Below are positions 1 through 64,000 of a stretch of DNA of 64,000 bases, piece after piece; within the stretch, counting starts at the first letter, position 1; every line of letters starts with the position of its first letter. Made by a program: the position numbers and the translations under genes. Source of the DNA: a virus (lineage: Duplodnaviria; Heunggongvirae; Uroviricota; Caudoviricetes); the IMG/VR virus record IMGVR_UViG_2541047879_000001. One strand, written 5' to 3'. The notes below the pieces were generated by a model that was not told where the DNA came from, did no database searches, and saw nothing but the letters and a program-made list of their open reading frames with translations.

Positions 1-796
1 TCAGTTTGCGGATCAGCGCCTGGTCTGTGCCGAACGCTGCCGAGCCGGGGTTATATGACCAGCCCACATCCGGTGTCATGGTTCTGGTGCCATCTGAATA
101 TGTGGTCACCGGCATTTCTCTGACTTCTCCGGTCTGTTTATCCACGCCAGCCTCAACATTGCGGGTGGAGAGATGATCCTCACCGGATGAAACGGATAAC
201 CCCATTGCATCCAGACGGGCCTGAGACAATGGCCGCACACGGCAGCGACAGTTCCAGCCATTGGGCGGGTAGTGAGTATTCCAGAACGGATCATCATAGC
301 GGAATACCAGCCCGTTAAGGGCGGAATGTGCCGGGCGGGTGCGGCTGTCCATCACCGCCACATACTGCCAGAACGGATGCGTGTCCGTGTTGTTCATCAT
401 CTGCGTGTAACGCCCGGCATTGTAAGCCACACGGGTGTTCACGTTGTAAATCAGCGCCAGACGGCGGGGGCTGCCAAGCTGCACTTCTTCCGCGTTCCCT
501 GCACTGTCCACCACAATCTGCTTTCCCCACCATCCCAGCTTTTGCAGGCGGGGTGTCAGCGTGCGGATAAATGTTTTCTGTGAAATGCCCTCATCAACAG
601 CACGCTGCACTTCCGCCTGTAGTGTGGTCAGTACGTCCAGGCGTGCCACTTTTGCCGCCGTGAATGAACGGGCATGAACATCCGCGTCTGTTTCGAACCA
701 GTTCCAGCTGATATGCTCCCCTTTGGCGCGGAAGTATGCCACCGCCTCTTTTGAGGGAAGCGTGGCGGCATAACCTAAATCAATCCCCTGTGTCAT
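1..796 (-). CDS. Mu F-like head morphogenesis protein (partial, C-terminus beyond window start)
   Basis: Own reverse-strand translation from ATG 796-794: MTQGIDLGYAATLPSKEAVAYFRAKGEH... with ...RPAHSALNG...YPPNGWNCRCRV motif typical of the Mu F / SPP1 gp7 family; frame open to position 1; not in ORF track because it runs off the window. Confidence 0.7.
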   Translation of the reverse strand, partial: MTQGIDLGYAATLPSKEAVAYFRAKGEHISWNWFETDADVHARSFTAAKVARLDVLTTLQAEVQRAVDEGISQKTFIRTLTPRLQKLGWWGKQIVVDSAGNAEEVQLGSPRRLALIYNVNTRVAYNAGRYTQMMNNTDTHPFWQYVAVMDSRTRPAHSALNGLVFRYDDPFWNTHYPPNGWNCRCRVRPLSQARLDAMGLSVSSGEDHLSTRNVEAGVDKQTGEVREMPVTTYSDGTRTMTPDVGWSYNPGSAAFGTDQALIRKL

Positions 797-2378: not shown

Positions 2379-4033
2379 CCCCGTTCAAATTCATGATATG
2401 CCTCATCGTCATCACGATAACCGCCCTCCATTGCCCGCGACCGCTCCGGCAGCGCCTGACAGGCTGATTCATCCAGGATGAATCCCTCCATGTATGACGC
2501 CCGGTTTGCCATACAGAGTGCCACGGCAAAATCACCATGGCGGCGGGCGTTCGCAGCCGTTGCGTTCTGGTCCTTCGTGCGCCCCTTGTCGATTTGCGGG
2601 ATACCATTCACCACCTTCACATGGCGCAAATCATCAAGCGTGGTCTGATGGCGGGCGACGAGGATATTCTGATCTTCAAACTCGGCTTTCAGTTTTGGCA
2701 TCCACTCGCCGTACCACTTCGGCGACAACATCACGCAGTCGATGATGTCCGGGCCAAAGGCCAGCAGTGCGGCTTCTGCCAGATAGCCGCCGTTACCGGT
2801 GGCGTCGAACGCCGCACCGACCAGCGCCGGAACGCGGGTCAGGATGTACATCATCACCTGTTCCTGCTGGGCATACGGCAGGTTGCGCAGCTCCACGCGA
2901 AACACCTCGCGCTTTGCCAGGGATTCGGTGATTTCCAGCAGCACAAAGCAGGACAGGTCACCGGTGCGGGCAAAGTCTTCCCCGAAGCTGAAGCGGGAAC
3001 GGGGATTTAATTTCTCTAAAAGCGGTTTTAAATGTTCTTCACACCAGGTTAAAACTTCCGATTCACGCAGCCATGCGGCACGGCTGATGAAGTTGTCCGG
3101 GGCTTCAAACGTCAGAATCGGGATGTCGCGGATCATCGCCATTTCAATAAGCGCGTGAGGAATATAGGCACCGCCGGATTTTTTCGGGATACAGCCGTAT
3201 TCCTCGTCGGCATCCTCACGGGTCGGGGCGTTTTTGTAGAGATCATCACGCCATTTCTGCTCGCTTTCCGGTGACCATTCCTGATCGGTGACGTAACAGA
3301 TACGACGGTACAGCCCGTCCGCAATGGCATCATCCAGGGTTATGCGGTGGACGCTGTAATCCTTGCGCCCCTCGCGGGCTTCCTGAATGTACTGATTAAA
3401 CAGATTATCGACGCCGTTATGCGTGGAGATAATACGCACGCGCGCGCCCCACATAGTGAGCGCCATTGCCGCCTTGAGAAGCTCATCCAGTGACTCGTGG
3501 AACGCGGCTTCATCAATCACCACATCCCCCTGAAGGCCGCGCAGGTTTGACGGACGGGAAGACAGTGCCTGAATTTTGAATCCACTGTTCGGAAAGCGGA
3601 TCATGTAGGTCAGAATTTCTTCTTTTTTATCCCGATCCCAGAAGGTCTGCTCATACACATCAGCATCCGCCAGCTGGTTAAAGGCGCGGGAGAACAGGGC
3701 GCAGGCAGAAATATATTCCAGCGCCATCTCCTGCTTTGATCCCACATAAAACACATTGCGGCCACCACGACGCTTCGGTTTTGCAGCAGTAATGACGTTA
3801 CGCCCGGCTTCCGCCCAGGTAAGACCGGTGCGGCGGGATTTTTCCGCAATGCAGACCTGACTTTCATCCTCAAACCAGCGGGCCTGATAATCCAGAAACA
3901 CCGGCATATCACCGGGCAAATCAAGTCTGTCCGGCACATCCACGCCCAGCAGGGCTTTTTCACCGGACAGATCAATTTTGCGGGGAGGCGTCATTTGTAT
4001 CAGTGAAGGAGACGTTTCTTTGGCTTTGTTCAT
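2369..4033 (-). CDS. Terminase large subunit (Mu gp28-like)
   Basis: 554-aa ORF directly upstream of the portal gene with 10-nt overlap; ATPase/nuclease-sized; Mu gene order. Confidence 0.75.
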   Translation of the reverse strand: MNKAKETSPSLIQMTPPRKIDLSGEKALLGVDVPDRLDLPGDMPVFLDYQARWFEDESQVCIAEKSRRTGLTWAEAGRNVITAAKPKRRGGRNVFYVGSKQEMALEYISACALFSRAFNQLADADVYEQTFWDRDKKEEILTYMIRFPNSGFKIQALSSRPSNLRGLQGDVVIDEAAFHESLDELLKAAMALTMWGARVRIISTHNGVDNLFNQYIQEAREGRKDYSVHRITLDDAIADGLYRRICYVTDQEWSPESEQKWRDDLYKNAPTREDADEEYGCIPKKSGGAYIPHALIEMAMIRDIPILTFEAPDNFISRAAWLRESEVLTWCEEHLKPLLEKLNPRSRFSFGEDFARTGDLSCFVLLEITESLAKREVFRVELRNLPYAQQEQVMMYILTRVPALVGAAFDATGNGGYLAEAALLAFGPDIIDCVMLSPKWYGEWMPKLKAEFEDQNILVARHQTTLDDLRHVKVVNGIPQIDKGRTKDQNATAANARRHGDFAVALCMANRASYMEGFILDESACQALPERSRAMEGGYRDDDEAYHEFERGCW

Positions 4034-4281
4034 CAGGCTTTACCTGTCAGAATGCTTTTGATTCGGAACTCAAGCTCTTCAGTCATCACGTCCACGCCAC
4101 TCAACTCATCAGTGACAGCCTCTGCCAGCAGCGAATGCAGTTGTTCCAGGGATATTTCCCCGGCAATGCTGAGTTCAGTCAACTCACGACACGCTTTTAT
4201 GGTTTCAGGAGGTAACTGTGTTGCAAGACTGAATGCCTTCTGATGAGCACTACTCATCAGTGAGCGGTTATCTGTTACCAC
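4033..4281 (-). CDS. Small phage protein sharing a C-terminal motif with the upstream DUF3486-like protein
   Basis: 82-aa ORF ending ...AVTDELSGVDVMTEELEFRIKSILTGKA, paralogous to the C-terminus of the 193-aa protein at 4292-4873. Confidence 0.5.
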   Translation of the reverse strand: MVTDNRSLMSSAHQKAFSLATQLPPETIKACRELTELSIAGEISLEQLHSLLAEAVTDELSGVDVMTEELEFRIKSILTGKA

Positions 4282-4291
4282 GATTCACCTC

Positions 4292-4873
4292 CTACGCCTT
4301 ACCAAGCAGCATCTGCCTGATACGGAATTCTATCTGCTCGCTCATGCCATCCACGCCGCGCAACTCGTCGGTGACGGCGTTCGCCATCTCTTCAGCAAAT
4401 GCGGCCCGGATTTCTTTTTCACGCTTAATGCTGCGCTCGGCGGCACTTTCCGCACGCTGTGCCGACAGGAGGATGTCCTTAATAAGGCGCATATCCACAT
4501 CGCTGTCGCTGTTCAGGGATTCGGTGGCAGCACGCAGACGGCGGTACATCAGGGCGCGGGACATTTCCAGAATCAGTGCCGTGGTTTCACCGGTCGGCTT
4601 GTCCCCCAGTTCGGCCATCATGGCTTTTGTCTGCTCGCGTAAATCACGCAGGTTACGGGCAATCAGCTCATTACGGGAGGCCTCCCGGCTGATGGCCGCC
4701 GGTGAAAGCTGCTGCTCTTCCGGCAGACCCGCCTCACGGATCAGGCGGTTGATTTCCTCGCGGATCTGGACCTGCGTCAGGCGTTTTTCACGCAGCATTT
4801 CCAGCAGCGGCTTACGGATGCTGTCGGGGAGCAAATCCACCTTGCGTACACGGCCACGCGTTGGCTTATCCAT
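4292..4873 (-). CDS. Mu gp27-like protein (DUF3486-like; putative terminase small subunit)
   Basis: 193-aa ORF immediately upstream of terminase large subunit; N-terminal basic/HTH-like region; Mu synteny. Confidence 0.55.
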   Translation of the reverse strand: MDKPTRGRVRKVDLLPDSIRKPLLEMLREKRLTQVQIREEINRLIREAGLPEEQQLSPAAISREASRNELIARNLRDLREQTKAMMAELGDKPTGETTALILEMSRALMYRRLRAATESLNSDSDVDMRLIKDILLSAQRAESAAERSIKREKEIRAAFAEEMANAVTDELRGVDGMSEQIEFRIRQMLLGKA

Positions 4874-4875
4874 CG

Positions 4876-5166
4876 TTACCCCCTTGCGCGTGGTTTCTTC
4901 ACACCCGGAACGGTGGCGCGGCCTTCCGCCACATCCTGACCCCGGCCGGTCAGTTCAACGATGAAATAACCGTTAACAAGCGTGCGCTTACGCACCAGTC
5001 CCTGCTCGGCAAGCCAGGCAATATGGGTATGCACGGTGTCGCGGGACACGCGGTGGCCGTAATCATCCAGGCAGTCCTGAAGCACGGATTCGCCCAGTTC
5101 GCCGTTGTAATCCGCCAGCGACCGCAGAATGACAAGACGCTGATCTTCAGTAATGAAATCACTCAT
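4876..5166 (-). CDS. Mu gp26-like phage protein
   Basis: 96-aa ORF in operon, position equivalent to Mu gp26. Confidence 0.45.
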   Translation of the reverse strand: MSDFITEDQRLVILRSLADYNGELGESVLQDCLDDYGHRVSRDTVHTHIAWLAEQGLVRKRTLVNGYFIVELTGRGQDVAEGRATVPGVKKPRARG

Positions 5167-5470
5167 TGTGTTTTTTCCTTACAGCCTGCTCCAGCAGCAG
5201 TTCGTTCTGGTGGGAGACGGATTTCAGGGTGGCATTGGTGGCCTTAAGCTCACCGCGCAGGGTGGTGATTTCGATATTGAGTCTGTTCACCTCCTGCTGC
5301 GTGGGCAGGCCGGAAATCCGGCTCTCCACCCGCTCAACCCGGTCGGAGAGTTTTTCAAAGGCCTCGCGGGGGACAAAGGTTTTGCGCATCAGCGCCATAA
5401 AGATCCCCCCGGCCGTGGCCGTTGCCGACAGGATCGGCACGACATAATCTTTAACGATGCTGATCCACAT
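5159..5470 (-). CDS. Small membrane/coiled-coil phage protein (Mu gp25-like)
   Basis: 103-aa ORF with N-terminal hydrophobic segment (ILSATATAGGIFMALM) followed by coiled-coil-like sequence. Confidence 0.45.
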   Translation of the reverse strand: MWISIVKDYVVPILSATATAGGIFMALMRKTFVPREAFEKLSDRVERVESRISGLPTQQEVNRLNIEITTLRGELKATNATLKSVSHQNELLLEQAVRKKHNE

Positions 5471-5678
5471 GACCGGCCTCCATGATGCTCTGGCAGTTCA
5501 CACAACGGATGGCATCCGGCACGGCAACCAGACGGGCGGCCGGAATGTCACCCCCGCAGTCTGCGCATACACGCCTGCCCGGAGTATCCTCCACCCGGCA
5601 CTTACGTGTCAGCCGGTCACAAAGGGCGCGTTCTGTTGCCCGCTCCATGACTGCCTGAGCACAATCTGAATCATCCAT
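5451..5678 (-). CDS. TraR/DksA-family C4 zinc-finger protein
   Basis: CADCGGDIPAARL...CVNC motif; start chosen at ATG 5678 (MDDSDCAQ...) preceded by AAGGA; the track ORF extends to 5744. Confidence 0.6.
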   Translation of the reverse strand: MDDSDCAQAVMERATERALCDRLTRKCRVEDTPGRRVCADCGGDIPAARLVAVPDAIRCVNCQSIMEAGHVDQHR

Positions 5679-5688
5679 ACCTTTTTCC

Positions 5689-6060
5689 TTACTTCGTCTT
5701 TCCTGCCGGAACAGCAGACGTTCCGGCCATATCAGTAAATTCATGCTGTCGCCGTACCTCCAGACGGCGGATGCTGGCCTTGTCCACGTTGCAGTTCTTA
5801 ATCACCGCCAGCAGTTGCAGGTTGTAAGTGACCGATGCGCCAAACGTGAACGGCTGCGGCACAGAAGGGACCAGACAGTCAGCCAGCCATTCAGCGGGGA
5901 TCGGCACCGGCTTCACCGGCACGTATTTCACAGACGGCCCGCCGCACCCGGTCAGCCACATCATCAGGCACAGGAACAGCGGCCGCAGGCACCGTTGCCA
6001 GCGACCGGCGGACAATGCTCTGCTGTTCCTCGCTGTGCTGCATGTTCTGCTGTTTTTCAT
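5689..6060 (-). CDS. Putative o-spanin (Rz1-like outer-membrane lipoprotein)
   Basis: Frame overlapping the 3' end of the i-spanin candidate; basic n-region, hydrophobic core and lipobox LTGC, proline-rich mature part; start uncertain (6060 or 5964). Confidence 0.4.
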   Translation of the reverse strand: MKNSRTCSTARNSRALSAGRWQRCLRPLFLCLMMWLTGCGGPSVKYVPVKPVPIPAEWLADCLVPSVPQPFTFGASVTYNLQLLAVIKNCNVDKASIRRLEVRRQHEFTDMAGTSAVPAGKTK

Positions 6061-6241
6061 TCGTGGCCGCCTTACTGATTTGTGAAATGAGTTGCAGGGT
6101 GCGTTGCTGGTTTGCCAGCACCAGACGGGCTTCGTCCCGTTCACGCACAAGCACATGATTATTGTCCTCAAGGCGCTGCGTCTTCTGGTGCATTCCCCAT
6201 ACCACGGCAGCCAGCACACTCATCACCCCCAGCGCCGCCAT
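5891..6241 (-). CDS. Putative i-spanin (Rz-like)
   Basis: Start at ATG 6241 preceded by GGAGG 4 nt upstream; N-terminal TM segment MAALGVMSVLAAVVW then coiled-coil-like periplasmic region; downstream of endolysin. Confidence 0.45.
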   Translation of the reverse strand: MAALGVMSVLAAVVWGMHQKTQRLEDNNHVLVRERDEARLVLANQQRTLQLISQISKAATNEKQQNMQHSEEQQSIVRRSLATVPAAAVPVPDDVADRVRRAVCEIRAGEAGADPR

Positions 6242-6353
6242 ACAGCCTCCGGCAATCAGGGCTGGTAAGGGATTATTCACCGCAGCCACAGCACACCCCG
6301 CAGCACCACAACAGCACACAGCAGCGCAATCATGAGCGGTCGCCAGAAACGGT

Positions 6354-6854
6354 TCAGACTTTCGGCAAGTCGTAACGACATAACCATTCATCCGCCGAAC
6401 GGCGGGCCTCAAGACCGGGGAGTTTCACCCCCTTTGAATAAATCCAGCGGATATACTGCTTACAGGACGCGGGCATCTGCCCGGCATTGATAAGGCGCAG
6501 GAGCGTGGAGTTGCGAAAGTTCGTTTCACCGGCCCAGAAAATCCAGGAGGCCAACGCCACCGTCTGACCACGGGTAAGCGGCACCTGAACATGACGATCG
6601 ATAGCCGCAAAGGCCCATTTCATGTCCTTTTCCAGCAGCTCCAGACACTCTTCATCAGTTTTTGTCATCCCCGGTTTCACATCCGGGCCGGTATGGCCGT
6701 AACAGATGGTGGGGGTGCCGGTGGGATCAATGTACGTGGTGTTTTCTTTCCCTTCCCAGTAGCCGGTGTAGTGCGTGGCAATGGTGAACGTCCCGGCTCC
6801 GGCCAGAACAAGGGCAATCAGCTTTTTACGCAGGGGTGCGGGGAGTTTTGGCAT
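6354..6854 (-). CDS. SAR endolysin (phage lysozyme, GH24-like)
   Basis: 166 aa; N-terminal signal-anchor-release-like segment LIALVLAGAGTFTIA and catalytic region TICYGHTG resembling phage 21 R-type lysozymes. Confidence 0.8.
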   Translation of the reverse strand: MPKLPAPLRKKLIALVLAGAGTFTIATHYTGYWEGKENTTYIDPTGTPTICYGHTGPDVKPGMTKTDEECLELLEKDMKWAFAAIDRHVQVPLTRGQTVALASWIFWAGETNFRNSTLLRLINAGQMPASCKQYIRWIYSKGVKLPGLEARRSADEWLCRYDLPKV

Positions 6855-6925
6855 TGTTACGCTGTCTCATGGTGTTCTCTGAGTCAGCGTAACCGTGGGA
6901 AAAAGTGGGCAGGATTTGCGGAATA

Positions 6926-7348
6926 TCAGAAAAGCCGGGGCTGCGTGCGTTCCTGATGCAGGCGGCGCTGGTTACGGATAACGGAGTAAATCTGCGTCTC
7001 TGACATCTGGTAGTGGCGGCGCAGGGTTTCAATTTTTTCGCCCTGGCTCCAGCGGGAAAAAATCTCATTATTGCGCAGTTCGGTGAAAAGGGATTCACCG
7101 ACCGGGAGATAATAACCACGCCCGCCCATGTACCCGGCCTGTGCGGCCGCAACTTTACGGGCAAGCATTCCCGCCTGAGCAGGTTCAATCCCCTGACGGT
7201 GCAGTTCAGCACTGATCACATCAACCAGGTCCCGCAGCGTGCCGGGCCAGTTCTTTTTCAGCTCATCATCAGGAATATCATCCAGACGGTCAATCAGCGC
7301 GTGCAGCTGTTCGCTGTCACCAAACATGCTCATCTGTGTTTCAGCCAT
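6926..7348 (-). CDS. Mor/C-family transcriptional activator
   Basis: 140 aa; C-terminal HTH region IETLRRHYQMSETQIYSVIRNQRR resembles Mu Mor/C; located between GemA-like gene and lysis genes. Confidence 0.7.
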   Translation of the reverse strand: MAETQMSMFGDSEQLHALIDRLDDIPDDELKKNWPGTLRDLVDVISAELHRQGIEPAQAGMLARKVAAAQAGYMGGRGYYLPVGESLFTELRNNEIFSRWSQGEKIETLRRHYQMSETQIYSVIRNQRRLHQERTQPRLF

Positions 7349-31168: not shown

Positions 31169-31377
31169 CGAGATTAAAGACCATTAATTCATATGTGAAT
31201 TGACAGTTTCATGGCACAGGATACGGCTAGCGTGGTTGTCTGTTTTGTGCCAGGGGCGGGCCTAACTAAGTTCACACAACATTGATTATTGAAGATTAGG
31301 TCAGAAATAAATAGGTTATTTTGATAATTTAGTTACGTTAGAATGCCGCAGTGTACAAAGTAAAAATGAGGAATAAT

Positions 31378-32739
31378 ATGACTCGGAGTGAAATAAACGT
31401 CTGGGATAAGAGACGAGGCACCAATAGTCATCGTGTGGAGGAGATTCGATCTGAAGCTCAGCACGACCTTTCTCGACTGATTCACTCGTCTGCTTTCAGA
31501 CGATTGCAATCCAAAACACAGGTTCTTGGTCTGGGTGAAAGTGATTTCTACCGCACACGACTGACTCATTCTATGGAAGTCGCACAAATCGGTTCAGGTC
31601 TTCTTGCTAAGCTGAAAATAAAATATAAAGGTAAAGAGCAAGAGCAATTTTTACCAGATAACGATCTTATGCAGGCAGTATGTCTCGCACATGATATTGG
31701 ACATCCTCCATTTGGTCACGGCGGTGAGGTAGCTCTTAACTACTGTATGCAGGATTACGGTGGTTTTGAAGGAAACGGTCAGACACTTCGCATTCTCTCG
31801 AAACTAGATAAGTATACCGTTGAACACGGACTCGATCCTACACGCAGACTTCTGCTAGGCATACTGAAATATCCGGTTAAATACTCGGATCTAGTGGTTA
31901 CAAAAGACAGAATCCCGGCCACTATCGGATCGCCGAACTGGCTCTTTAAGTCATCTGATTTTAAACCTCCAAAATGCTATCTAGATTCAGAATGCGATGT
32001 TGTAGAATTTGCTCTTTCACCATTTACTGAACAGGATCGGAGGCTTTTTACTTCCGTTGAAGATGGTCAAACTAAATCCGATCATAAAAAAGCTTCTTAT
32101 AAAGCTCTCGATACAACCATCATGGATCTTGCCGATGAAATTTCGTATTCGCTGCACGATTTGGAGGATGCTATTTCTCTCGGAATGGTGACACGAGAAA
32201 TGTGGATGGAGCATTTCAGTGAATATGAAACCCTATTTACTAACTGCCATGGAGAAACATTTTCCGCAACATGTGAATCTGTCGCGGATAGCCTTTTTGG
32301 TGAAAGTTACAAGAGAAAAGAGTGCATCGGGATGCTGGTTCACCTGATGATTACAAGCGTTGAGCTTATTACAAAGAATCCAGCATTCGAATGTGGCATG
32401 CTCAAATATAATGCGGTCCTTCCGGAAGCGGTCGAAGCACTACGGTTGAAAATTTTCAAACTGGTCAAAAATAAAGTAATTAAGCATGAAAATGTACAGC
32501 AGCTTGAATTCAAGGGACAAAAGTTGATTGTTGAGCTTTTCGGTGTGCTGGCTAACGATCCGTGTCGGTTTCTACCGGCATCAACGAGGGAAATTTACGA
32601 GCGGCAGACTAGCTTGGACGAGAAGGCTGGTATGCGAGTCATTTGCGACTATGTTTCAGGGATGACTGATGACTATGCAACAAAGCTTTATGAGAAGATC
32701 CTTATTCCACGCAAAGGGTCTATTTTTGACCATCTCTAA
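31378..32739 (+). CDS. HD-domain dGTP triphosphohydrolase-like protein (Dgt family); candidate antiphage dNTP-depletion enzyme
   Basis: N-terminal SSAFRRLQSKTQV...RLTHSMEVAQIG and HD motif VCLAHDIGHPPFGHGGE matching dGTPase family; start at ATG 31378 with GAGGA 5 nt upstream; AT-rich gene in accessory island. Confidence 0.8.
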   Translation: MTRSEINVWDKRRGTNSHRVEEIRSEAQHDLSRLIHSSAFRRLQSKTQVLGLGESDFYRTRLTHSMEVAQIGSGLLAKLKIKYKGKEQEQFLPDNDLMQAVCLAHDIGHPPFGHGGEVALNYCMQDYGGFEGNGQTLRILSKLDKYTVEHGLDPTRRLLLGILKYPVKYSDLVVTKDRIPATIGSPNWLFKSSDFKPPKCYLDSECDVVEFALSPFTEQDRRLFTSVEDGQTKSDHKKASYKALDTTIMDLADEISYSLHDLEDAISLGMVTREMWMEHFSEYETLFTNCHGETFSATCESVADSLFGESYKRKECIGMLVHLMITSVELITKNPAFECGMLKYNAVLPEAVEALRLKIFKLVKNKVIKHENVQQLEFKGQKLIVELFGVLANDPCRFLPASTREIYERQTSLDEKAGMRVICDYVSGMTDDYATKLYEKILIPRKGSIFDHL

Positions 32740-33149
32740 TGCGGCAAGAATGATGCTCTGAGTTCAATTGACCTATAAACATTAACCAAGGCATCTACCA
32801 GGGGGATATCAAATCCCCCCATTCTGAATTTGTTCGTGCAGAATCGGTGAACGTTCTCATCTGAGCGTTAAACGCCAATAATCGTTGATCTACATTGATC
32901 ATTAATACACCTTAATACCATTAGCGTCTTACTCCGTTATGAGAACAAACGCGAACTGACCTGCCCCCAGTATTAGTGACCTTCAGCTACGGTAACTTGT
33001 CCGCTTCGTGCCAGAAGCGGACATCCATAGAGAAATAAGCGATCAGTTCTTAAATTTGTTGTGATTTTTTGATTTTTTTGTATTCGCAAAGGGATTTGTG
33101 TTGGTTGTATAATTACCTAATATTCATACAGTTGAATGGGAGATGTGGG

Positions 33150-34043
33150 ATGAAGTTCTCGTACAGACATGGTTTTGATCCTGAGTATAATAAAAAGCCG
33201 ATACGGGAAGATGCTCCAGAGTGGCTTCGCTCTTTATTTTTTGTAACTGTCCTCGATAATTTTTTGTACATTGATGGTGATAGCCGCATTACGAATGATG
33301 AGAACAAGCCGTTGGGTATTAAGGCTTTGATCGAGCGACTTTGCGCAGAGAATGGTCAAGAAACAGATCATGAGGATTTCGATTCATGGTACTGCTATGA
33401 TGCTTTGAAAGCGCGTTTGCAACATATGCGTTGGTTTCAATTTTATGATGCTGTTGAGATTATCGGAGATCTATTAAGAAAAAGAGATGTAGAAAGAGGC
33501 CATACTTGGGGTAAGAAGGCATTAGAAGACATTACTTTTACATCATATCGTCAGAAATTGAACGAGTTATTCGCATCTCGAAATATTGACTGGAAAATGA
33601 ATTCTGCTGGTAGGTTAGAAACACCACTACCAAATGAATTAGAACAAAAAATCGATGAAACTAACAACTTATTGCAAGACCAGTTTGAACCTGCAAGGAG
33701 GCACTATGTGAAAGCCCGGGCTTTTGCATTAGGTGCGCATAAGGATCCAGAAAATTCCATAAAAGAATCAATAAGTGCAATAGAAAGCATGTGTCGGACT
33801 TATTATCCTTCAGCCTCAACCTTGGGCGATGTATTAAAACTGATGAGAAAAGAAAACACTATCTCACCTATGCTTTTAACGGTGATAGAGAAATTTTACG
33901 CTTATACAAATGCAGAGCCAGCAGTAAGACATGGTAGCAACAAGGTTTCTTCTGTCTTGGAATACGATGCTGAATTCGTGTTGCATATATCAGCAGCATT
34001 TATTAGAACAATAATACAAAGAAAAGCTGTTTTGGATAACTAA
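33150..34043 (+). CDS. Hypothetical protein, possibly Abi-like (helical, contains Rx6H motif RAFALGAH)
   Basis: Start at ATG 33150 (MKFSYRHGFDPEY...) preceded by candidate -10 TATAAT (33108-33113); AT-rich; domain assignment unverified. Confidence 0.5.
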   Translation: MKFSYRHGFDPEYNKKPIREDAPEWLRSLFFVTVLDNFLYIDGDSRITNDENKPLGIKALIERLCAENGQETDHEDFDSWYCYDALKARLQHMRWFQFYDAVEIIGDLLRKRDVERGHTWGKKALEDITFTSYRQKLNELFASRNIDWKMNSAGRLETPLPNELEQKIDETNNLLQDQFEPARRHYVKARAFALGAHKDPENSIKESISAIESMCRTYYPSASTLGDVLKLMRKENTISPMLLTVIEKFYAYTNAEPAVRHGSNKVSSVLEYDAEFVLHISAAFIRTIIQRKAVLDN

Positions 34044-34283
34044 GTCAGACTTACAGCCAACTGACTGTCTCTTATTATTCAAAACATAATAATGTTAGGT
34101 CCGCTTATCGCACATCAGGGACAACCATACTCAAATCTCCCACATTGCAGGAGATTTGAGTGTGAACACGTCACCGTGGAACAAAGACTGTATCATCGGT
34201 CAAAAAAGACCTGGTTATCTAGCAAAAACTTTTAACATACCAACAAACTTAATTTATTTAAATGCTATTAATACAACTAATGT

Positions 34284-35510
34284 TTAAAATATATATTTTA
34301 TATCAACCCAATTTTTAGCATTATTGTCAACTAAAGTAACGCTATGTCCATGACTTGAATTTATAGCATCGATTACTGATTGTGATGGGTGTCCATGTGA
34401 ATGACCATCCGACTGAGCTATAAACAAAACATTATCAAAATCCGCAATTATTTTTTGATTGAAATTTAATTCCGAACCATGATGAGGTAATGTCATCACC
34501 CTTACCGTTTTAATCACTTTTGAATAGAATTCAGCCCATTTATTATAATACAATGATGTATTAAGCTTTGAGTCACCTGTTAATAAAACAGATCTAATTC
34601 CTTTATCTCTATCAAAGAGAAAATGTCGCTCAACCCGACTATTTCTAAAACTAAACCACTCACGAGAAGGCTCATTAACAATTTTCATCTCAGCTTCTTG
34701 ATTATTAATAATCAAGAGATTGATTGATATTACATTATGATCGCCAGCAAGTTTTAAATAACACTCGCGTAATTTCTTTCTTTCCCCCGTGCTAGTTAAT
34801 ATTTTAAGCATTTTTTTCTTACTTAACTCAGTAAAACCATTTTCTATTAACTGCTGACTGAAAATTTCAATTTTCTTACGTGAACGGGGCGGTATCCAAG
34901 AAATAAATGACATTAGTGTATCAGTTTTGTTTTCCCCAATCCTTTTAACCAACCAACGGTTACATTCAACATCTCCTTTGGAGTCAGATATTTTCATTGG
35001 TAAGCTTACAGCGCTATCCTTAATGTTTTCACTATTAAATATAGGAGGGTCAAAATTATCATCAATATCACAGGGGTAAAGCAAAGATATATCTGCCTCA
35101 GGCAACCTTGATTTTATCCATTTGACAGGATCAATGAGAAATTCCATAAAAAGACCTGACGTAGAATTAGAGCATAGCTCCGATGCAATTAAGTAATAGC
35201 TATCATGGATATCTAGGTATGGTAATACAACCTTGCGTATTTTGTTATCTACAAGCTGACATAAATGGTCAAATCCATTTATATGGTCTGAATCCAAATG
35301 AGAGATGTATACCACATCAATATATTTCTCATCAATATTAAAGAGAGATTTAGCCACATCCATCTCCCTACGCAACGCATTTAATTGGTCACTTCCGCAG
35401 TCATACACATAACTGTAAAGCAAACTACCATCCCTTCCCCTCAGTCCGCCTAAACTAAATCCACCCTGGCCAACGGGAAACAATCTTTTATGAAATACTT
35501 CTCCGCTCAT
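34284..35510 (-). CDS. Standalone metallo-beta-lactamase-fold hydrolase (ComEC/Rec2-type MBL domain, putative nuclease)
   Basis: 408 aa; motifs PVGQGG, HLDSDHINGF (HxDxDH-type metal site) and LPHHGS characteristic of the ComEC-type MBL domain; no TM segments; AT-rich. Confidence 0.7.
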   Translation of the reverse strand: MSGEVFHKRLFPVGQGGFSLGGLRGRDGSLLYSYVYDCGSDQLNALRREMDVAKSLFNIDEKYIDVVYISHLDSDHINGFDHLCQLVDNKIRKVVLPYLDIHDSYYLIASELCSNSTSGLFMEFLIDPVKWIKSRLPEADISLLYPCDIDDNFDPPIFNSENIKDSAVSLPMKISDSKGDVECNRWLVKRIGENKTDTLMSFISWIPPRSRKKIEIFSQQLIENGFTELSKKKMLKILTSTGERKKLRECYLKLAGDHNVISINLLIINNQEAEMKIVNEPSREWFSFRNSRVERHFLFDRDKGIRSVLLTGDSKLNTSLYYNKWAEFYSKVIKTVRVMTLPHHGSELNFNQKIIADFDNVLFIAQSDGHSHGHPSQSVIDAINSSHGHSVTLVDNNAKNWVDIKYIF

Positions 35511-36224: not shown

Positions 36225-36929
36225 ATGGAAAAAATTAAAACTCCTTGTCCATATTGTAAAGGTGAAAAAAATTGCCACATAATAGGCCATAAAAAAAGAG
36301 AATGGAGTGAGGATGATGGGGGCAACTATTTTTGGGCTGAAAGTGAATACAAATTATTAGAGTGTATGGGGTGCGACGGAATATTTACATATATTAAATC
36401 CCGTCACAGTGAAGATTACGACATTGAAAGAGATGAGTCAGGCTATGATTGTATGGTATATAACTATCATATATCAACATATCCCACTCAAGAGCAAGAA
36501 GAGATTAGACCAACTTGGTTTGGTGAGACATTAAACAAAGATCGTCAGCTGTATGTAATAATGAACGAAATGTACATCGCATTTCAAAATAAATCATTCA
36601 TTTTAGCGGCGATTGGACTTAGAACTATTTTTGACAGAACAGTTGAGGTTCTAAATATTCATCCAGGATATACATTAGGCCAGAAGGTTGACATTCTTAA
36701 AGAGGAAGGTTTTATTGGGGAAACAGAAAGGAGCCAACTTAAAATTGTAACCGAAGCTGGCAACTCAGCTGCACACAGGACATGGGCACCGAACGAAACT
36801 GAATTTAAATCGCTTTTGGTAATTATAGAAAATTTTGTAATGCGAACAATACTAAAAAATGAGGATATATTTAAGATTACAGAAAAATTACCTGCGAAAT
36901 ATCCAAGACCTCCCAAAAAGCAAGAATAA
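36225..36929 (+). CDS. Zinc-ribbon / DUF4145-like (HEPN-superfamily-like) protein
   Basis: 234 aa; N-terminal CPYC...CMGC zinc ribbon; C-terminal AAIGLRTIFDRTVE...GNSAAHRTW resembling DUF4145; AT-rich. Confidence 0.6.
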   Translation: MEKIKTPCPYCKGEKNCHIIGHKKREWSEDDGGNYFWAESEYKLLECMGCDGIFTYIKSRHSEDYDIERDESGYDCMVYNYHISTYPTQEQEEIRPTWFGETLNKDRQLYVIMNEMYIAFQNKSFILAAIGLRTIFDRTVEVLNIHPGYTLGQKVDILKEEGFIGETERSQLKIVTEAGNSAAHRTWAPNETEFKSLLVIIENFVMRTILKNEDIFKITEKLPAKYPRPPKKQE

Positions 36930-37367
36930 TGTACGTAAGTGTAAATAGAGCTAAGAGATTATATATTGACTCTGGTTATCTCTATTAGCACATGCTTTTT
37001 GTAATGCCTTAACTGATTATTTAAACTCCTGTCAGCTTTTCGCTCAAAGCGGACTAAAGTGTTGGCTTGTGACTGACTTAGCGCATTTAAGGAAGTGGTG
37101 GTGGTGACGGGGTGTTGTGTCCCATTTCCACAGAATAAATCAGAGAAACTATAGCGGCTGTAATGGCAATCTATGGTCTTGCTATTGCTCTTATGGATCA
37201 CCTTTCTGATTGATTTCATATTGGCGAGGTAACGGGAGTTAAGTAGAATAGCTGCGGGTGCTTGAGGCTGTCTGCCTCGGGCATGAACACCAAAGGCAGA
37301 TAGAGAAAAGCCCCAGTTAACATTACGCGTCCGGCAAGACGCTTAACATTAATCTGAGGCCACATCT

Positions 37368-37616
37368 ATGCTTTGCATACGTAGATTAGCCTCTTACCGA
37401 CCAAAAGGTCAAGGAGAAGCAGGCTATGAAGCAGCAAAAGGCGATGTTAATCACCCTGATCGTCATCTGTTTAACCGTTATAGTGACGGTACTGGTAACG
37501 AGGAAAGACCTCTGCGAGGTACGAATCCGAACCGACCAGACGGAGGTCGCTGTCTTCACAGCTTACGAACTTGGGGAGTAAGAGGACCAGCGGGGAGAAA
37601 TCCCCGCAACCTCTGA
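37368..37616 (+). CDS. mok: mok-like overlapping reading frame of hok locus
   Basis: 82-aa frame starting 58 nt upstream of hok and overlapping it in another frame, as in hok/sok loci. Confidence 0.45.
   Translation: MLCIRRLASYRPKGQGEAGYEAAKGDVNHPDRHLFNRYSDGTGNEERPLRGTNPNRPDGGRCLHSLRTWGVRGPAGRNPRNL
37426..37581 (+). CDS. hok: Hok/Gef-family type I toxin
   Basis: Own translation MKQQKAMLITLIVICLTVIVTVLVTRKDLCEVRIRTDQTEVAVFTAYELGE (51 aa, below track cutoff), near-identical to E. coli Hok proteins; SD AAGGAG upstream; 3' hairpin GCGGGGA-GAAA-TCCCCGC at 37590-37607. Confidence 0.85.
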   Translation: MKQQKAMLITLIVICLTVIVTVLVTRKDLCEVRIRTDQTEVAVFTAYELGE

Positions 37617-60853: not shown

Positions 60854-61551
60854 TGCAGGACATACAACAGGAAACGCTGAATGAATGCATTCGTGCGGAG
60901 CAGTCGGCCAGCGTGGTGCTCTGGGAAATCGACCTGACCGAGGTAGGCGGGGATCGCTACTTTTTCTGTAATGAGCAGAACGAAAAAGGTGAGTCTGTCA
61001 CCTGGCAGAGTCGGCAGTATCAGGCCTATCCCATTCAGGGGAGTGGATTTGAGATGAACGGCAAGGGCAGTGCTGCCCGTCCGACACTGACGGTCTCTAA
61101 CCTGCACGGCATGATCACCGGGATGGCGGAAGATCTGCAGAGTCTGGTCGGCGGAACGGTGGTCCGGCGTAAGGTTTACGCCCGCTTTCTGGATGCGGTG
61201 AACTTCGTCAACGGAAACAGCGAAGCCGATCCGGAGCAGGAGGTGATCAGCCGCTGGCGCATCGAGCAGTGCAGCGAACTGAGCGCGGTCAGTGCCTCTT
61301 TTGTACTGTCCACGCCGACTGAAACGGATGGCGCTGTTTTTCCGGGACGAATCATGCTGGCCAACACCTGCACCTGGACCTATCGCGGCGATGAGTGCGG
61401 TTATAGCGGTCCGGCTGTCGCGGATGAATATGACCAGCCAACGTCCGATATCACGAAGGATAAATGCAGCAAATGCCTGAGTGGCTGTAAGTTCCGCAAT
61501 AATGTCGGCAACTTTGGCGGCTTCCTTTCCATTAACAAACTTTCGCAGTAA
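60853..61551 (+). CDS. Minor tail protein L (lambda L-like)
   Basis: 232 aa, near-identical to lambda gpL ([12 protein letters not shown]...FLSINKLSQ). Confidence 0.8.
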   Translation: MQDIQQETLNECIRAEQSASVVLWEIDLTEVGGDRYFFCNEQNEKGESVTWQSRQYQAYPIQGSGFEMNGKGSAARPTLTVSNLHGMITGMAEDLQSLVGGTVVRRKVYARFLDAVNFVNGNSEADPEQEVISRWRIEQCSELSAVSASFVLSTPTETDGAVFPGRIMLANTCTWTYRGDECGYSGPAVADEYDQPTSDITKDKCSKCLSGCKFRNNVGNFGGFLSINKLSQ

Positions 61552-61556
61552 ATCCC

Positions 61557-62300
61557 ATGACAGAGACAGAATCAGCGATTCTGGCGCACGCCCGGCGATG
61601 TGCGCCAGCGGAGTCGTGCGGCTTCGTGGTGAGAACGCCGGAGGAGGAAAGATATTTTCCCTGCGTGAATATCTCCGGTGAACCGGAGGATTATTTCCGG
61701 ATGTCGCCGGAGGACTGGCTGCAGGCCAAAATGCAGGGTGAGATTGTGGCGCTGGTCCACAGTCACCCCGGTGGTCTGCCCTGGCTGAGTGAGGCCGACC
61801 GGCGGCTGCAGGTGCAGAGTGATTTGCCGTGGTGGCTGGTCTGCCGGGGGGCGATTCACAAATTCCGCTGTGTGCCGCATCTCACCGGGCGGCGCTTTGA
61901 GCACGGGGTGACGGACTGTTACACGCTGTTCCGGGACGCTTACCATCTGGCGGGGATTGAGATGCCGGATTTTCATCGCGAGGATGACTGGTGGCGTCAC
62001 GGTCAGAATCTCTATCTGGATAATCTGGAGGCCACAGGGCTGTATCAGGTGCCGTTGTCAGCGGCGCAGCCGGGCGATGTGCTGCTGTGCTGTTTTGGTT
62101 CATCGGTGCCGAATCATGCCGCTATTTACTGCGGCGACGGCGAGCTGCTGCACCATATTCCTGAACAACTGAGCAAACGAGAGAGGTATACCGACAAATG
62201 GCAGCGACGCACACACTCCCTCTGGCGTCACCGGGCATGGCACGCATCTGCCTTTACGGGGATTTACAACGATTTGGCCGCCGCATCGACCTTCGAGTGA
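61557..62300 (+). CDS. Tail assembly protein K (lambda K-like, JAB/MPN + NlpC/P60)
   Basis: MTETESAILAHARRCAPAESCGFVV... matches lambda gpK. Confidence 0.8.
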   Translation: MTETESAILAHARRCAPAESCGFVVRTPEEERYFPCVNISGEPEDYFRMSPEDWLQAKMQGEIVALVHSHPGGLPWLSEADRRLQVQSDLPWWLVCRGAIHKFRCVPHLTGRRFEHGVTDCYTLFRDAYHLAGIEMPDFHREDDWWRHGQNLYLDNLEATGLYQVPLSAAQPGDVLLCCFGSSVPNHAAIYCGDGELLHHIPEQLSKRERYTDKWQRRTHSLWRHRAWHASAFTGIYNDLAAASTFE

Positions 62301-62869
62301 AAACGGGGTCCGAAGCCATCCGGGCGCTGGCCATGCAGATCCCGGCATTTCGTCAGAAACTGAGCGACGGCTGGTATCAGGTACGGATTGCCGGGCGGGA
62401 CGTCAGCACGTCCGGGTTGACGGCGCAGTTACATGAGACTCTGCCTGATGGCGCTGTGATTCATATTGTTCCCAGAGTCGCCGGGGCCAAGTCAGGTGGC
62501 GTATTCCAGATTGTTCTGGGGGCTGCCGCCATTGCCGGATCATTCTTTACTGCCGGAGCCACCCTTGCAGCATGGGGGGCAGCCATTGGGGCCGGTGGTA
62601 TGACCGGTATCCTGTTTTCTCTCGGTGCCAGTATGGTGCTCGGTGGTGTGGCGCAGATGCTGGCACCGAAAGCCAGGACGCCCACGGCAGCAAGTACAGA
62701 TAACGGCAAACAGAACACCTATTTCTCCTCACTGGATAACATGGTTGCCCAGGGCAATGTTCTGCCCGTTCTGTACGGTGAAATGCGCGTGGGGTCGCGG
62801 GTGGTCTCTCAGGAGATCAGCACGGCAGACGAAGGGGATGGTGGTCAGGTTGTGGTGATTGGTCGCTGA
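62198..62869 (+). CDS. Tail assembly protein I (lambda I-like)
   Basis: 223 aa, near-identical to lambda gpI. Confidence 0.75.
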   Translation: MAATHTLPLASPGMARICLYGDLQRFGRRIDLRVKTGSEAIRALAMQIPAFRQKLSDGWYQVRIAGRDVSTSGLTAQLHETLPDGAVIHIVPRVAGAKSGGVFQIVLGAAAIAGSFFTAGATLAAWGAAIGAGGMTGILFSLGASMVLGGVAQMLAPKARTPTAASTDNGKQNTYFSSLDNMVAQGNVLPVLYGEMRVGSRVVSQEISTADEGDGGQVVVIGR

Positions 62870-62928
62870 TGAAAAACGTTTATGTGAAACCGCCTCCGGG
62901 CGGTTTTGTCGTTTATGGAGCGTGAGGA

Positions 62929-64000
62929 ATGGGTAAAGGCAGCAGTAAGGGGCATACCCCGCGCGAAGCGAAGGACAACCTGAAATCATCCCAGATGCTG
63001 AGCGTGATAGACGCCATCAGTGAAGGGCCGGTTGAAGGTCCGGTGGACGGATTAAAAAGTGTGCTGCTGAACAGTACGCCGGTGCTGGACAGTGAGGGGA
63101 ATACCAACATCTCCGGCGTCACGGTGGTGTTCCGGACCGGTGAGCAGGAGCAGACACCGCCGGAGGGATTTGAATCCTCCGGCTCCGAGACGGTGCTGGG
63201 TACGGAAGTGAAGTACGACACGCCGATTACCCGGACCATCACGTCGGCAAACATCGACCGTCTGCGCTTTACCTTCGGTGTGCAGGCACTGGTGGAAACC
63301 ACCTCAAAGGGGGACCGGAATCCGTCGGAAGTCCGCCTGCTGGTTCAGATACAGCGTAACGGTGGCTGGGTGACGGAAAAAGACATCACCATTAAGGGCA
63401 AAACCACCTCGCAGTATCTGGCCTCGGTGGTGGTGGGTAACCTGCCGCCGCGCCCGTTCAATATACGGATGCGCAGGATGACGCCGGACAGCACCACAGA
63501 CCAGCTGCAGAACAAAACGCTCTGGTCGTCATACACCGAAATCATCGATGTGAAACAGTGCTACCCGAACACGGCACTGGTCGGCGTGCAGGTGGACTCG
63601 GAGCAGTTCGGCAGCCAGCAGGTGAGCCGTAATTATCATCTGCGCGGGCGCATTCTGCAGGTGCCGTCGAACTATAACCCGCAGACGCGGCAATACAGCG
63701 GTATCTGGGACGGAACGTTTAAGCCGGCATACAGCAACAACCCGGCCTGGTGTCTGTGGGATATGCTGACCCACCCGCGCTACGGCATGGGGAAACGTCT
63801 TGGTGCGGCGGATGTGGACAAATGGGCGCTGTATGTCATCGGCCAGCATTGCGATCAGTCGGTGCCGGACGGTTTTGGCGGCACGGAGCCGCGCATCACC
63901 TGTAATGCGTACCTGACCACACAGCGCAAGGCGTGGGATGTGCTCAGTGATTTCTGCTCGGCGATGCGCTGTATGCCGGTATGGAACGGGCAGACGCTGA
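62929..64000 (+). CDS. Tail tip host-specificity protein J (partial, continues beyond window)
   Basis: Own translation MGKGSSKGHTPREAKDNLKSSQMLSVIDAISEGPVEGPVDGLKS... matches lambda gpJ N-terminus; no stop before window end, hence absent from the ORF track. Confidence 0.85.
   Translation, partial: MGKGSSKGHTPREAKDNLKSSQMLSVIDAISEGPVEGPVDGLKSVLLNSTPVLDSEGNTNISGVTVVFRTGEQEQTPPEGFESSGSETVLGTEVKYDTPITRTITSANIDRLRFTFGVQALVETTSKGDRNPSEVRLLVQIQRNGGWVTEKDITIKGKTTSQYLASVVVGNLPPRPFNIRMRRMTPDSTTDQLQNKTLWSSYTEIIDVKQCYPNTALVGVQVDSEQFGSQQVSRNYHLRGRILQVPSNYNPQTRQYSGIWDGTFKPAYSNNPAWCLWDMLTHPRYGMGKRLGAADVDKWALYVIGQHCDQSVPDGFGGTEPRITCNAYLTTQRKAWDVLSDFCSAMRCMPVWNGQTL

What the first reader, a model, noticed from the sequence alone, without database searches (positions are those of the whole stretch)
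33150..34043. Uncharacterised 297-aa protein with possible Abi/HEPN features
AT-rich gene with a good candidate promoter and strong flanking hairpins (32998-33024 upstream, 34131-34159 downstream). It is helical, contains an Rx6H motif (RAFALGAH) and has an N-terminus (MKFSYRHGF...) reminiscent of AbiJ-type abortive-infection proteins, but the assignment is unverified.
Basis: inference. Interest (0 to 1): 0.55.

Follow-up and report, generated by a model that had tools for sequence, protein, structure and literature searches.

The report
Prophage AbiJ-like HEPN defence candidate
This is a real, rarely carried prophage gene for a two-domain protein, a fast-evolving N-terminal "sensor" joined to a HEPN ribonuclease-type domain, that most likely kills phage-infected cells; it belongs to a catalogued but untested family, so it is a sound but fairly ordinary defence candidate.

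The parts
33150..34043 (+). Coding sequence of the 297-aa AbiJ-NTD4/HEPN protein (stop codon included)
   Evidence: ORF list and sequence. The start MKFS is conserved in 38 homologs. dN/dS is 0.13 against the Dickeya ortholog. PADLOC PDC-S32 matches at E 1.6e-33 over residues 1-291.
33150..33677 (+). N-terminal domain, residues 1-176: AbiJ_NTD4, the presumed sensor/regulatory domain. It is a six-helix bundle with short strands.
33678..34040 (+). C-terminal HEPN-fold domain, residues 177-297: helices 177-194, 200-218, an insert helix 225-235, 240-255, the loop 256-270, and helix 271-296
33744..33797 (+). Helix-2 conserved stripe: D199, N202, K205, E206, S209, E212 and R216. E212-x3-[KR]216 fits the HEPN 'Ex3[KR]' motif.
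   Evidence: D199, N202, K205, E206 and E212 are invariant in alignments A1 and A3. Position 216 is K/R in 37 of 38 close and 26 of 38 distant homologs. The motif definition comes from PMC3710099.
33927..33932 (+). Codons for R260-H261, the invariant 'RH dyad' in the helix 3-helix 4 loop. This is the predicted catalytic His with a relocated Arg.
   Evidence: Invariant in A1 and A3. Present in 252 of 266 relatives by a strict pattern. hhalign to an Achromobacter relative with R-T-x4-H and Gly at position 260 gives 97.6% probability. P0153 shows the same swap.
33031..34099 (+). The DNA unit that travels with the gene: 119 nt upstream, the CDS, and 56 nt downstream
   Evidence: blastn shows 83.6% identity to the Dickeya chrysanthemi locus L010 over exactly this span. 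The right edge coincides with the start of the integrase-remnant homology at 34100.
33108..33113 (+). Candidate -10 hexamer TATAAT, with a weak -35 TTCGCA at 33083-33088 and a 19-nt spacer
   Evidence: Read from the sequence. Both hexamers are also present in the Dickeya upstream region. The consensus scan did not call it.
33138..33142 (+). Ribosome-binding site GGGAG, 7 nt before the ATG
   Evidence: Read from the sequence. It is identical in Dickeya.

Best explanation
The gene encodes a stand-alone, single-protein anti-phage abortive-infection effector of the AbiJ type. The variable N-terminal AbiJ-NTD4 domain keeps the protein inactive until it recognises a phage-made component. The C-terminal HEPN domain then becomes active, probably through a change in oligomeric arrangement that brings two active-site loops together. 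It cleaves cellular and phage RNA without a metal ion, which stops translation and phage production. The active site is a variant of the HEPN site. H261 is the catalytic histidine. R260, next to it, replaces the usual arginine found 4-6 residues upstream. The helix-2 residues N202, K205, E206 and E212, and H185 on helix 1, complete the pocket.

Shown here: the ORF, the two-domain architecture, the HEPN fold, the conservation pattern, the arginine relocation, the lack of a partner gene, and the setting in mobile elements and defence islands.

Inferred: RNase activity, activation by a trigger, oligomerisation, and the abortive-infection phenotype.
For: Architecture:
- Pfam AbiJ_NTD4 and a full-length match to PADLOC PDC-S32 at E 1.6e-33.

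A catalytic-type conservation pattern:
- D199, N202, K205, E206, E212, R260 and H261 stay invariant down to 20-25% identity.
- The RH dyad is present in at least 252 of 266 relatives.
- These residues lie where the HEPN active site is expected, on helix 2 and in the H3-H4 loop (PMC3710099).
- Two independent relatives with Gly at 260 have an Arg upstream in canonical register: Achromobacter L017 (hhalign 97.6%) and P0153. This pattern fits selection for an arginine at the site.

Sensor and effector asymmetry: the N-terminal domain averages 37% pairwise identity against 55% for the C-terminal domain, and the C-terminal domain is the more conserved in 98% of pairs.

Stand-alone gene: no neighbour is conserved across nine lineages, and the mobile unit holds only this gene.

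Defence context:
- It sits between an anti-phage dGTPase (NF041026, 560 bits) and MBL, DUF4145 and hok/sok cassettes.
- The same prophage slot in another strain holds AbiH and SIR2 genes.
- Homologs lie next to Hachiman, a SIR2-TPR protein, PemK with an AAA_15/21 ATPase and a PLD nuclease, and at the end of a P2-like prophage.

Precedents: SadR, an Abi_C protein, is an RNase whose HEPN motif is needed for defence (PMC13590631). HepS is a solo HEPN abortive-infection protein in the equivalent slot of a lambdoid prophage (PMC13043305).
Against: - No member of the AbiJ-NTD4 or PDC-S32 family has been tested in the literature searched.
- The canonical Rx4-6H motif is absent at the expected position, so RNase chemistry is extrapolated.
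- Pfam Abi_C is not matched by this protein, and only below threshold by 4 of 38 homologs.
- AbiJ_NTD4 is matched only 0.4 bits above its threshold.
- Foldseek against the PDB gave nothing significant. No solved structure is related by sequence.
- The spatial clustering of the conserved residues was inferred from helix periodicity and the published HEPN anatomy. It was not measured on coordinates.
- The promoter evidence is weak.
- The gene is in only 10 of 5,426 complete E. coli genomes, so there is no population-level evidence of benefit.
Confidence: 0.6

Rival explanations
1. The HEPN domain is not catalytic. The protein would be a binding or regulatory accessory factor of the prophage, for example an RNA- or protein-binding regulator or a superinfection-exclusion factor. 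HEPN folds such as MtlR or the substrate-binding domains of nucleotidyltransferases work this way.
Against: Seven polar residues are invariant at 20-25% identity, including a His-Arg pair at the expected active-site loop. Relatives show compensatory relocation of the Arg. The genomic company is defence genes and toxins, not metabolic operons.
Confidence: 0.15
2. It is a toxin whose main role is addiction or stabilisation of the mobile element. This could be a toxin-antitoxin-like module, including a type III system with an RNA antitoxin as in AbiF or AbiV, and not phage defence as such.
For: HEPN toxins are common in TA systems, and AbiV and AbiF are type III TA systems (PMC13064643). The gene lies beside hok/sok and, in homologs, near PemK and HicB/PIN modules.
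Against: There is no tandem-repeat array or known RNA family upstream or downstream. The unit shared with Dickeya carries only 119 nt upstream and 56 nt downstream, with no second ORF. No small partner gene is conserved in nine lineages.
Confidence: 0.1
3. It works only as part of a multi-gene system with its window neighbours, the dGTPase upstream or the convergent MBL-fold gene downstream.
For: In all 10 E. coli genomes that carry the gene, the dGTPase and the MBL gene flank it at 99.8-99.9% identity.
Against: Those 10 genomes share one near-identical prophage segment, so the linkage is not independent evidence. The dGTPase module occurs without this gene in E. coli 1303 and many other strains, and its homology ends at 32957. 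An integrase-gene remnant separates the gene from the MBL cassette. Homologs in other genera have neither neighbour.
Confidence: 0.05
4. It is an inactive relic: an intact reading frame with no current function in E. coli.
For: The gene is rare (10 of 5,426 genomes), AT-rich and recently acquired, with weak promoter evidence. One strain has it cut after 133 nt, at 33282, with an IS3 element next to the breakpoint.
Against: dN/dS is 0.13 against an ortholog with dS 0.61. All family-invariant residues are intact. The ribosome-binding site and -10 hexamer are conserved with Dickeya.
Confidence: 0.05

Closest known systems
PADLOC phage-defence candidate PDC-S32 / NCBI 'AbiJ-NTD4 domain-containing protein' (Pfam PF18863 family)
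   Same: There is a full-length HMM match (PDLC04997, E 1.6e-33, residues 1-291). Homologs carry this NCBI name. The architecture is the same: AbiJ_NTD4 plus a C-terminal HEPN domain.
   Different: Nothing differs at family level. This protein belongs to a divergent gammaproteobacterial branch whose N-terminal domain only just passes the Pfam threshold, while core members score 78-127 bits. The family is a prediction: the PDC systems are 145 untested 'guilt-by-embedding' candidates.
AbiJ (Abi-859) of Lactococcus and the Abi_C (PF14355) family, including S. aureus SadR
   Same: It is a single polypeptide with a variable N-terminal domain and a C-terminal HEPN domain, as classified by Anantharaman et al. 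2013, who define AbiJ-NTD4 as fused to the AbiJ HEPN. It has a defence role. SadR is an RNase, and its RNEYGDAH motif is essential for defence.
   Different: This protein does not match the Abi_C model at E <= 1, and the best homolog scores 21.9 bits against a cutoff of 24. It lacks the R-polar-x3-5-H motif and has an adjacent R260-H261 instead. Only 3 of 2,815 Abi_C proteins carried AbiJ-NTD4 in the SadR survey.
HepS of Salmonella prophage Gifsy-1
   Different: There is no sequence relationship. HepS has a canonical R100-x4-H105 motif. Its trigger (the tail-tip protein J) and its target (tRNA anticodon loops) are known, whereas neither is known here.
HEPN families with non-canonical active sites (AbiV, AF0298-type HEPN-T, Parep1/8)
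   Different: In those families it is the His that moves, or the Arg is lost with replacement from elsewhere in the sequence. Here the Arg moves within the same loop to the position next to the His.
Death-fold domains (CARD, PYD, DED, DD), including bacterial CARD/death-like domains

Membership tests
AbiJ_NTD4 (Pfam PF18863) | HMM match at or above the curated gathering score (34 bits) | tested here: met
   34.4 bits, E 3.8e-8, residues 1-170 against profile positions 1-148 of 152. This is marginal for this sequence. All 38 homologs match (best 5e-18), and distant relatives found through the C-terminal domain score up to 127 bits.
PADLOC PDC-S32 (phage defence candidate) | Full-length match to the PDC-S32 HMMs | tested here: met
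   PDLC04997 at E 1.6e-33 (residues 1-291) and PDLC04996 at E 2.7e-26.
PADLOC PDC-S32 (phage defence candidate) | Demonstrated protection against phage | not testable with these tools
   The PDC systems are explicitly untested candidates. No paper mentions PDC-S32.
HEPN superfamily | [quoted passage not shown] | tested here: met
HEPN superfamily | [quoted passage not shown] | tested here: not met
   H261 is invariant at the expected place, but positions 255-257 are never Arg. The invariant Arg is R260, adjacent to the His. The only Rx4-6H matches in the protein, at residues 112 and 190, are non-conserved and expected by chance.
HEPN superfamily | Conserved acidic residue in helix 2, typically as Ex3[KR] | tested here: met
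   E212 is invariant. Position 216 is K/R in 37 of 38 close and 26 of 38 distant homologs. E206 is also invariant.
Abi_C / AbiJ HEPN (Pfam PF14355) | HMM match at or above the gathering score (24 bits) | tested here: not met
   This protein has no match at E <= 1. Four of 38 homologs match below threshold. The best is P0081 at 21.9 bits, E 2e-4, residues 244-296 against profile positions 30-82 of 83.
Abi_C / AbiJ HEPN (Pfam PF14355) | R-polar-x3-5-H RNase motif (SadR: RNEYGDAH) | tested here: not met
   The corresponding stretch here is T-N-A-E-P-A-V-R-H. A homologous relative does carry R-T-P-G-V-G-H in register (hhalign 97.6%).
Abortive-infection system (functional class) | Infected cells die or arrest without releasing phage; protection only at low multiplicity of infection | not testable with these tools
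   This needs phage challenge experiments.
Type III toxin-antitoxin Abi (AbiF/AbiV/ToxIN type) | Tandem-repeat RNA antitoxin gene next to the toxin gene | tested here: not met
   TRF found only trivial 2-copy repeats. No direct-repeat arrays were found. No Rfam match lies near the gene.
Death-fold superfamily (for the N-terminal domain) | Six-helix bundle superposable on CARD, PYD, DED or DD domains | tested here: inconclusive

The most novel reading that the evidence does not exclude
The AbiJ-NTD4 domain is a prokaryotic death-fold (CARD/PYD-like) six-helix bundle fused directly to an RNase. The protein would then be a one-polypeptide 'death domain plus executioner'. A phage cue would drive death-fold-type higher-order assembly, which pairs the HEPN loops and switches on an active site with a relocated arginine (the RH dyad). 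That would add a very large bacterial family (over 4,000 clusters at 50% identity) to the death-fold world, and define a new HEPN active-site geometry.
Probability: 0.12. Interest if true: 0.75.

Novelty: new member of a known kind. Interest (0 to 1): 0.4.

Why it matters
AbiJ-type proteins have been known genetically since the 1990s, yet a 2026 review states that no mechanistic information is available for AbiJ (PMC13064643). The AbiJ-NTD4/PDC-S32 branch is very large and has never been tested in the literature searched.

An E. coli prophage copy carried on a compact 1.07-kb self-contained unit is a convenient model. Cloning it would test whether this candidate family really defends against phage. 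It would identify the trigger sensed by the fast-evolving N-terminal domain. It would also show whether a HEPN site with the arginine moved next to the histidine is an active RNase.

The locus also documents a cassette-style defence hotspot after the DUF977 gene of Rac-like prophages.

Tried and rejected
Rejected as chance and not conserved.
- **The hairpins as the gene's terminators.** Rejected. They lie outside the unit shared with Dickeya, have no T-run, and belong to an inter-cassette element and an integrase 5' remnant. A possible inverted-repeat relation between 32997-33022 and 34099-34124 is only 73% complementary. A pattern search gave nothing above chance.
- **Sequence links to solved structures.** None were found for the whole protein, the N-terminal domain or the C-terminal domain.
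- **Foldseek against the PDB.** Not significant.
- **NCBIfam and PHROGs.** No usable match for this protein.
- **Phage genomes.** Only three weak partial tblastn hits.
- **Literature.** Nothing on PDC-S32 or on experimental work with AbiJ-NTD4. The bacterial death-domain paper does not mention AbiJ.
- **A bona fide Pfam Abi_C protein for profile comparison.** The attempt failed. tblastn against plasmids returned only AbiJ-NTD4-type or unannotated proteins. It did yield the Achromobacter relative with a canonical motif.
- **Type III TA and multi-gene readings.** Considered and rejected.
- **Distances between conserved residues.** I could not measure them because model coordinates are not exposed to the scripting tool.

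Full report
**1. The observation.**
A GGGAG ribosome-binding site lies 7 nt upstream of the ATG. The start M-K-F-S is conserved in all close homologs. The gene has 38.1% GC in a window of 47.8%. Against the Dickeya chrysanthemi ortholog (86% amino-acid identity), dN/dS is 0.13 at dS 0.61, so it is a real gene under purifying selection.

Both hairpins exist and are much more stable than shuffled controls. 32998-33023 has dG -18.4 kcal/mol (z -3.9). 34126-34164 has dG -22.5 kcal/mol (z -7.0).

The Rx6H motif RAFALGAH (R190-H197) is present but carries no information. Shuffles of this protein contain 1.63 Rx4-6H motifs on average, and 83% contain at least one. R190 is kept in 14 of 38 close homologs and H197 in 9 of 38. 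Each is kept in only 2 of 38 distant ones.

The promoter claim reduces to a perfect TATAAT at 33108-33113 with a poor -35 at a 19-nt spacing. The consensus scan called nothing upstream and found no more sites than chance.

**2. What the protein is.**
Pfam matches AbiJ_NTD4 (PF18863) over residues 1-170 at 34.4 bits against a cutoff of 34. PADLOC matches the candidate family PDC-S32 over the full length at E 1.6e-33. NCBIfam and PHROGs give nothing useful.

A search of 5.8 billion proteins found 128 homologs at E <= 0.001. Nearly all carry PF18863, several are named 'AbiJ-NTD4 domain-containing protein', and a few have a faint Abi_C hit. Scanning 38 diverse homologs, all match AbiJ_NTD4 (best 5e-18). 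Only 4 match Abi_C, all below threshold.

**3. The active site.**
A profile of the C-terminal domain alone found 4,186 cluster representatives in a library of 1.84 billion proteins, 3,009 of them at E <= 1e-10. Members at 20-25% identity score 78-127 bits on AbiJ_NTD4, so they are the core of that Pfam family.

Across close and distant members, the invariant residues are D199, N202, K205, E206, E212, R260, H261 and A274. H185 is nearly invariant.

[quoted passage not shown] A conserved acidic residue lies in helix 2, typically as Ex3[KR]. In the model, helix 2 is 200-218 and helix 3 ends at 255. E212-x3-[KR]216 fits the second motif, and H261 sits where the catalytic His should be.

The canonical arginine is missing, however: positions 255-257 are never Arg. 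An invariant Arg sits directly before the His instead. This 'RH dyad' is present in 252 of 266 retrieved relatives by a strict pattern. Most of the remaining 14 are flank variants or truncated proteins.

Two relatives are informative. An Achromobacter plasmid protein with an AbiJ_NTD4-like N-terminus aligns to the domain profile with 97.6% hhalign probability (E 2.8e-12). The motif region is ungapped...IYIWRNRTPGVGHGG... against ...FYAYTNAEPAVRHGS.... It therefore has a canonical R-T-x4-H, with Gly at the position of R260. P0153 reads YAYRSSEPAVGHGS: again Gly at 260, with an Arg reappearing upstream.

I read this as relocation of the catalytic arginine within one loop. It argues that R260 and H261 are active-site residues and that this is a working enzyme, not a degenerate HEPN. 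That the conserved residues cluster in space is inferred from helix periodicity (199, 202, 205/206, 209, 212/213, 216 lie on one face) and from the published anatomy. I could not measure distances on the model.

**4. Stand-alone gene and mobile context.**
blastn against related loci resolves the region into cassettes.
- The dGTPase module (31247-32957) occurs without this gene in E. coli 1303.
- Homology to the Dickeya locus runs exactly from 33031 to 34099.
- 34100-34211 is the upstream region plus the first 50 nt of a 200-aa recombinase gene that holds only a Phage_integrase domain. That gene is present in about 790 E. coli genomes.

So the downstream hairpin belongs to the integrase remnant. 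The upstream hairpin lies in a 73-nt junction segment. A copy with 87-94% identity (partial in one genome) recurs in 11 other E. coli genomes. In one of these, strain NADC1036, it lies between a hypothetical gene and an AbiH-family gene in the same slot after the DUF977 gene, with a SIR2-family gene nearby.

The gene is in only 10 of 5,426 complete E. coli genomes, always in the same near-identical Rac-like prophage segment.

In eight other lineages no neighbour is conserved, and the settings are mobile elements or defence islands:
- Pseudomonas lundensis: Hachiman and an integrase.
- Dickeya: a region with TraD, MobA and TA genes.
- Burkholderia: near a resolvase.
- A metagenome contig: HicB/PIN genes.
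- Pantoea: an integrase, PemK, an AAA_15/21 ATPase and a PLD nuclease.
- Pseudoalteromonas: a SIR2-TPR protein.
- P. aeruginosa: the end of a P2-like prophage, next to the portal gene.
- Klebsiella: small unknown ORFs.

No tandem repeats or known RNA families lie near the gene, so a type III antitoxin is unlikely.

**5. Mechanism.**
The best-supported reading is a single-protein abortive-infection RNase of the AbiJ type.

The N-terminal domain evolves faster than the HEPN domain: 37% against 55% mean pairwise identity, with the HEPN domain the more conserved in 98% of pairs. This fits a sensor under arms-race pressure joined to a conserved effector, as proposed for the AbiJ N-terminal domains.

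Experimental precedents are SadR and HepS. SadR is an Abi_C RNase whose motif mutants lose both activity and defence. HepS is a solo HEPN protein in the equivalent accessory slot of a lambdoid prophage. It is inactive until it binds a tail-tip protein, and then cleaves tRNA.

The trigger, the substrate, the oligomeric state and the phenotype are all inferred for this protein. Lactococcal AbiJ escape mutants map to a single-strand annealing protein, but that protein is not shown to share this N-terminal domain.

**6. Comparison and novelty.**
The protein is a member of a catalogued but untested family: PF18863, PDC-S32, and the 'AbiJ' HEPN group of Anantharaman et al. 2013. The PDC systems are 145 untested candidates found by their embedding in known systems. 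I found no experimental paper on this family.

It fails two membership criteria for Abi_C proper: the Pfam threshold and the R-polar-x3-5-H motif. It meets the fold criterion and the helix-2 criterion for HEPN. I file it as a new member of a known kind. The RH dyad appears to be an undescribed family-wide variant.

**7. An unexpected lead.**

The scores are modest for a helical bundle. There is no sequence support. The bacterial death-domain survey does not mention AbiJ. I treat this as a resemblance worth testing, not a finding.

**8. Verdict.**
This is a sound, fairly ordinary defence candidate. Interest is moderate, resting on a tractable E. coli model for an untested, very large family and on an unusual active-site arrangement.

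Noticed in passing
window 32978-33025 (hairpin 32998-33023); L015 3501-3548; L016 3501-3547; L001 9076-9109: A roughly 48-nt hairpin element recurs at 87-94% identity (a partial copy in one genome) in 11 other E. coli genomes. In strain NADC1036 it lies between single-gene cassettes of the same prophage slot (hypothetical gene, hairpin, AbiH, hypothetical gene, SIR2, after DUF977). A 35-nt match also occurs 2 kb downstream of the Klebsiella homolog. It may be a terminator or a cassette-junction element.
   Followed up: partly
window 34100-34211 (inverted repeat 34126-34164): This is a remnant of the upstream region plus the first 50 nt of a 200-aa tyrosine recombinase that has only the catalytic domain (Phage_integrase, E 2e-17). 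The intact gene is in about 790 E. coli genomes and sits next to variable cargo: a dGTPase in E. coli 1303, and a 326-aa unknown protein plus hokD in strain UK_Dog_Liverpool. Its 15-bp inverted repeat overlaps the recombinase start codon. A role in cassette exchange or inversion is possible.
   Followed up: partly
window 31351-32739 (+): An anti-phage dGTPase (NCBIfam NF041026 at 560 bits; PADLOC dGTPase at E 8.7e-145) lies directly upstream. It is a separate mobile module (31247-32957) found without the AbiJ-like gene in other strains.
   Followed up: partly
window 34284-35510 (-): A 408-aa MBL-fold protein has weak C-terminal similarity to the MBL components of defence systems: PADLOC LmuA at E 2.7e-12, and Avs1a and DRT-associated MBL at about 1e-6 to 1e-8. 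It is AT-rich (33% GC) and is another stand-alone defence candidate.
   Followed up: no
window 36225-36929 (+): A 234-aa protein has an N-terminal Cys-rich zinc-ribbon-like segment (CPYC...C...H, CMGC) and a C-terminal DUF4145 domain, which is classed as a HEPN family (Pfam E 3.2e-11; PHROG 1305). It has no PADLOC match. This is a second HEPN-type candidate in the same island.
   Followed up: no
window 37256-37581 (+): A hok/sok type I toxin-antitoxin module (Rfam sok at 105 bits; Pfam HOK_GEF at E 5e-21) closes the island, before the DUF1367 gene at 38045.
   Followed up: no
P0255 (539 aa), P0249 (245 aa), L018:1372-1767 (131 aa): The RH-dyad HEPN domain occurs in other architectures. One is AbiJ_NTD4-HEPN followed by a methyladenine-glycosylase-like domain. 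Another has an N-terminal histidine-phosphatase (His_Phos_1) domain in place of NTD4. A third is a solo 131-aa protein on an Alisedimentitalea plasmid.
   Followed up: no
L009 (E. coli 1919D3) 4293-5521, corresponding to window 33282: In one strain, homology to the window ends at 33282, 133 nt into the gene, and an IS3-family element lies next to the breakpoint. The rest of the island, and more, is missing there.
   Followed up: no
window 1-7000 and 61000-64000: The window ends have 56-59% GC, well above the prophage interior (about 38-50%). They were not examined.
   Followed up: no
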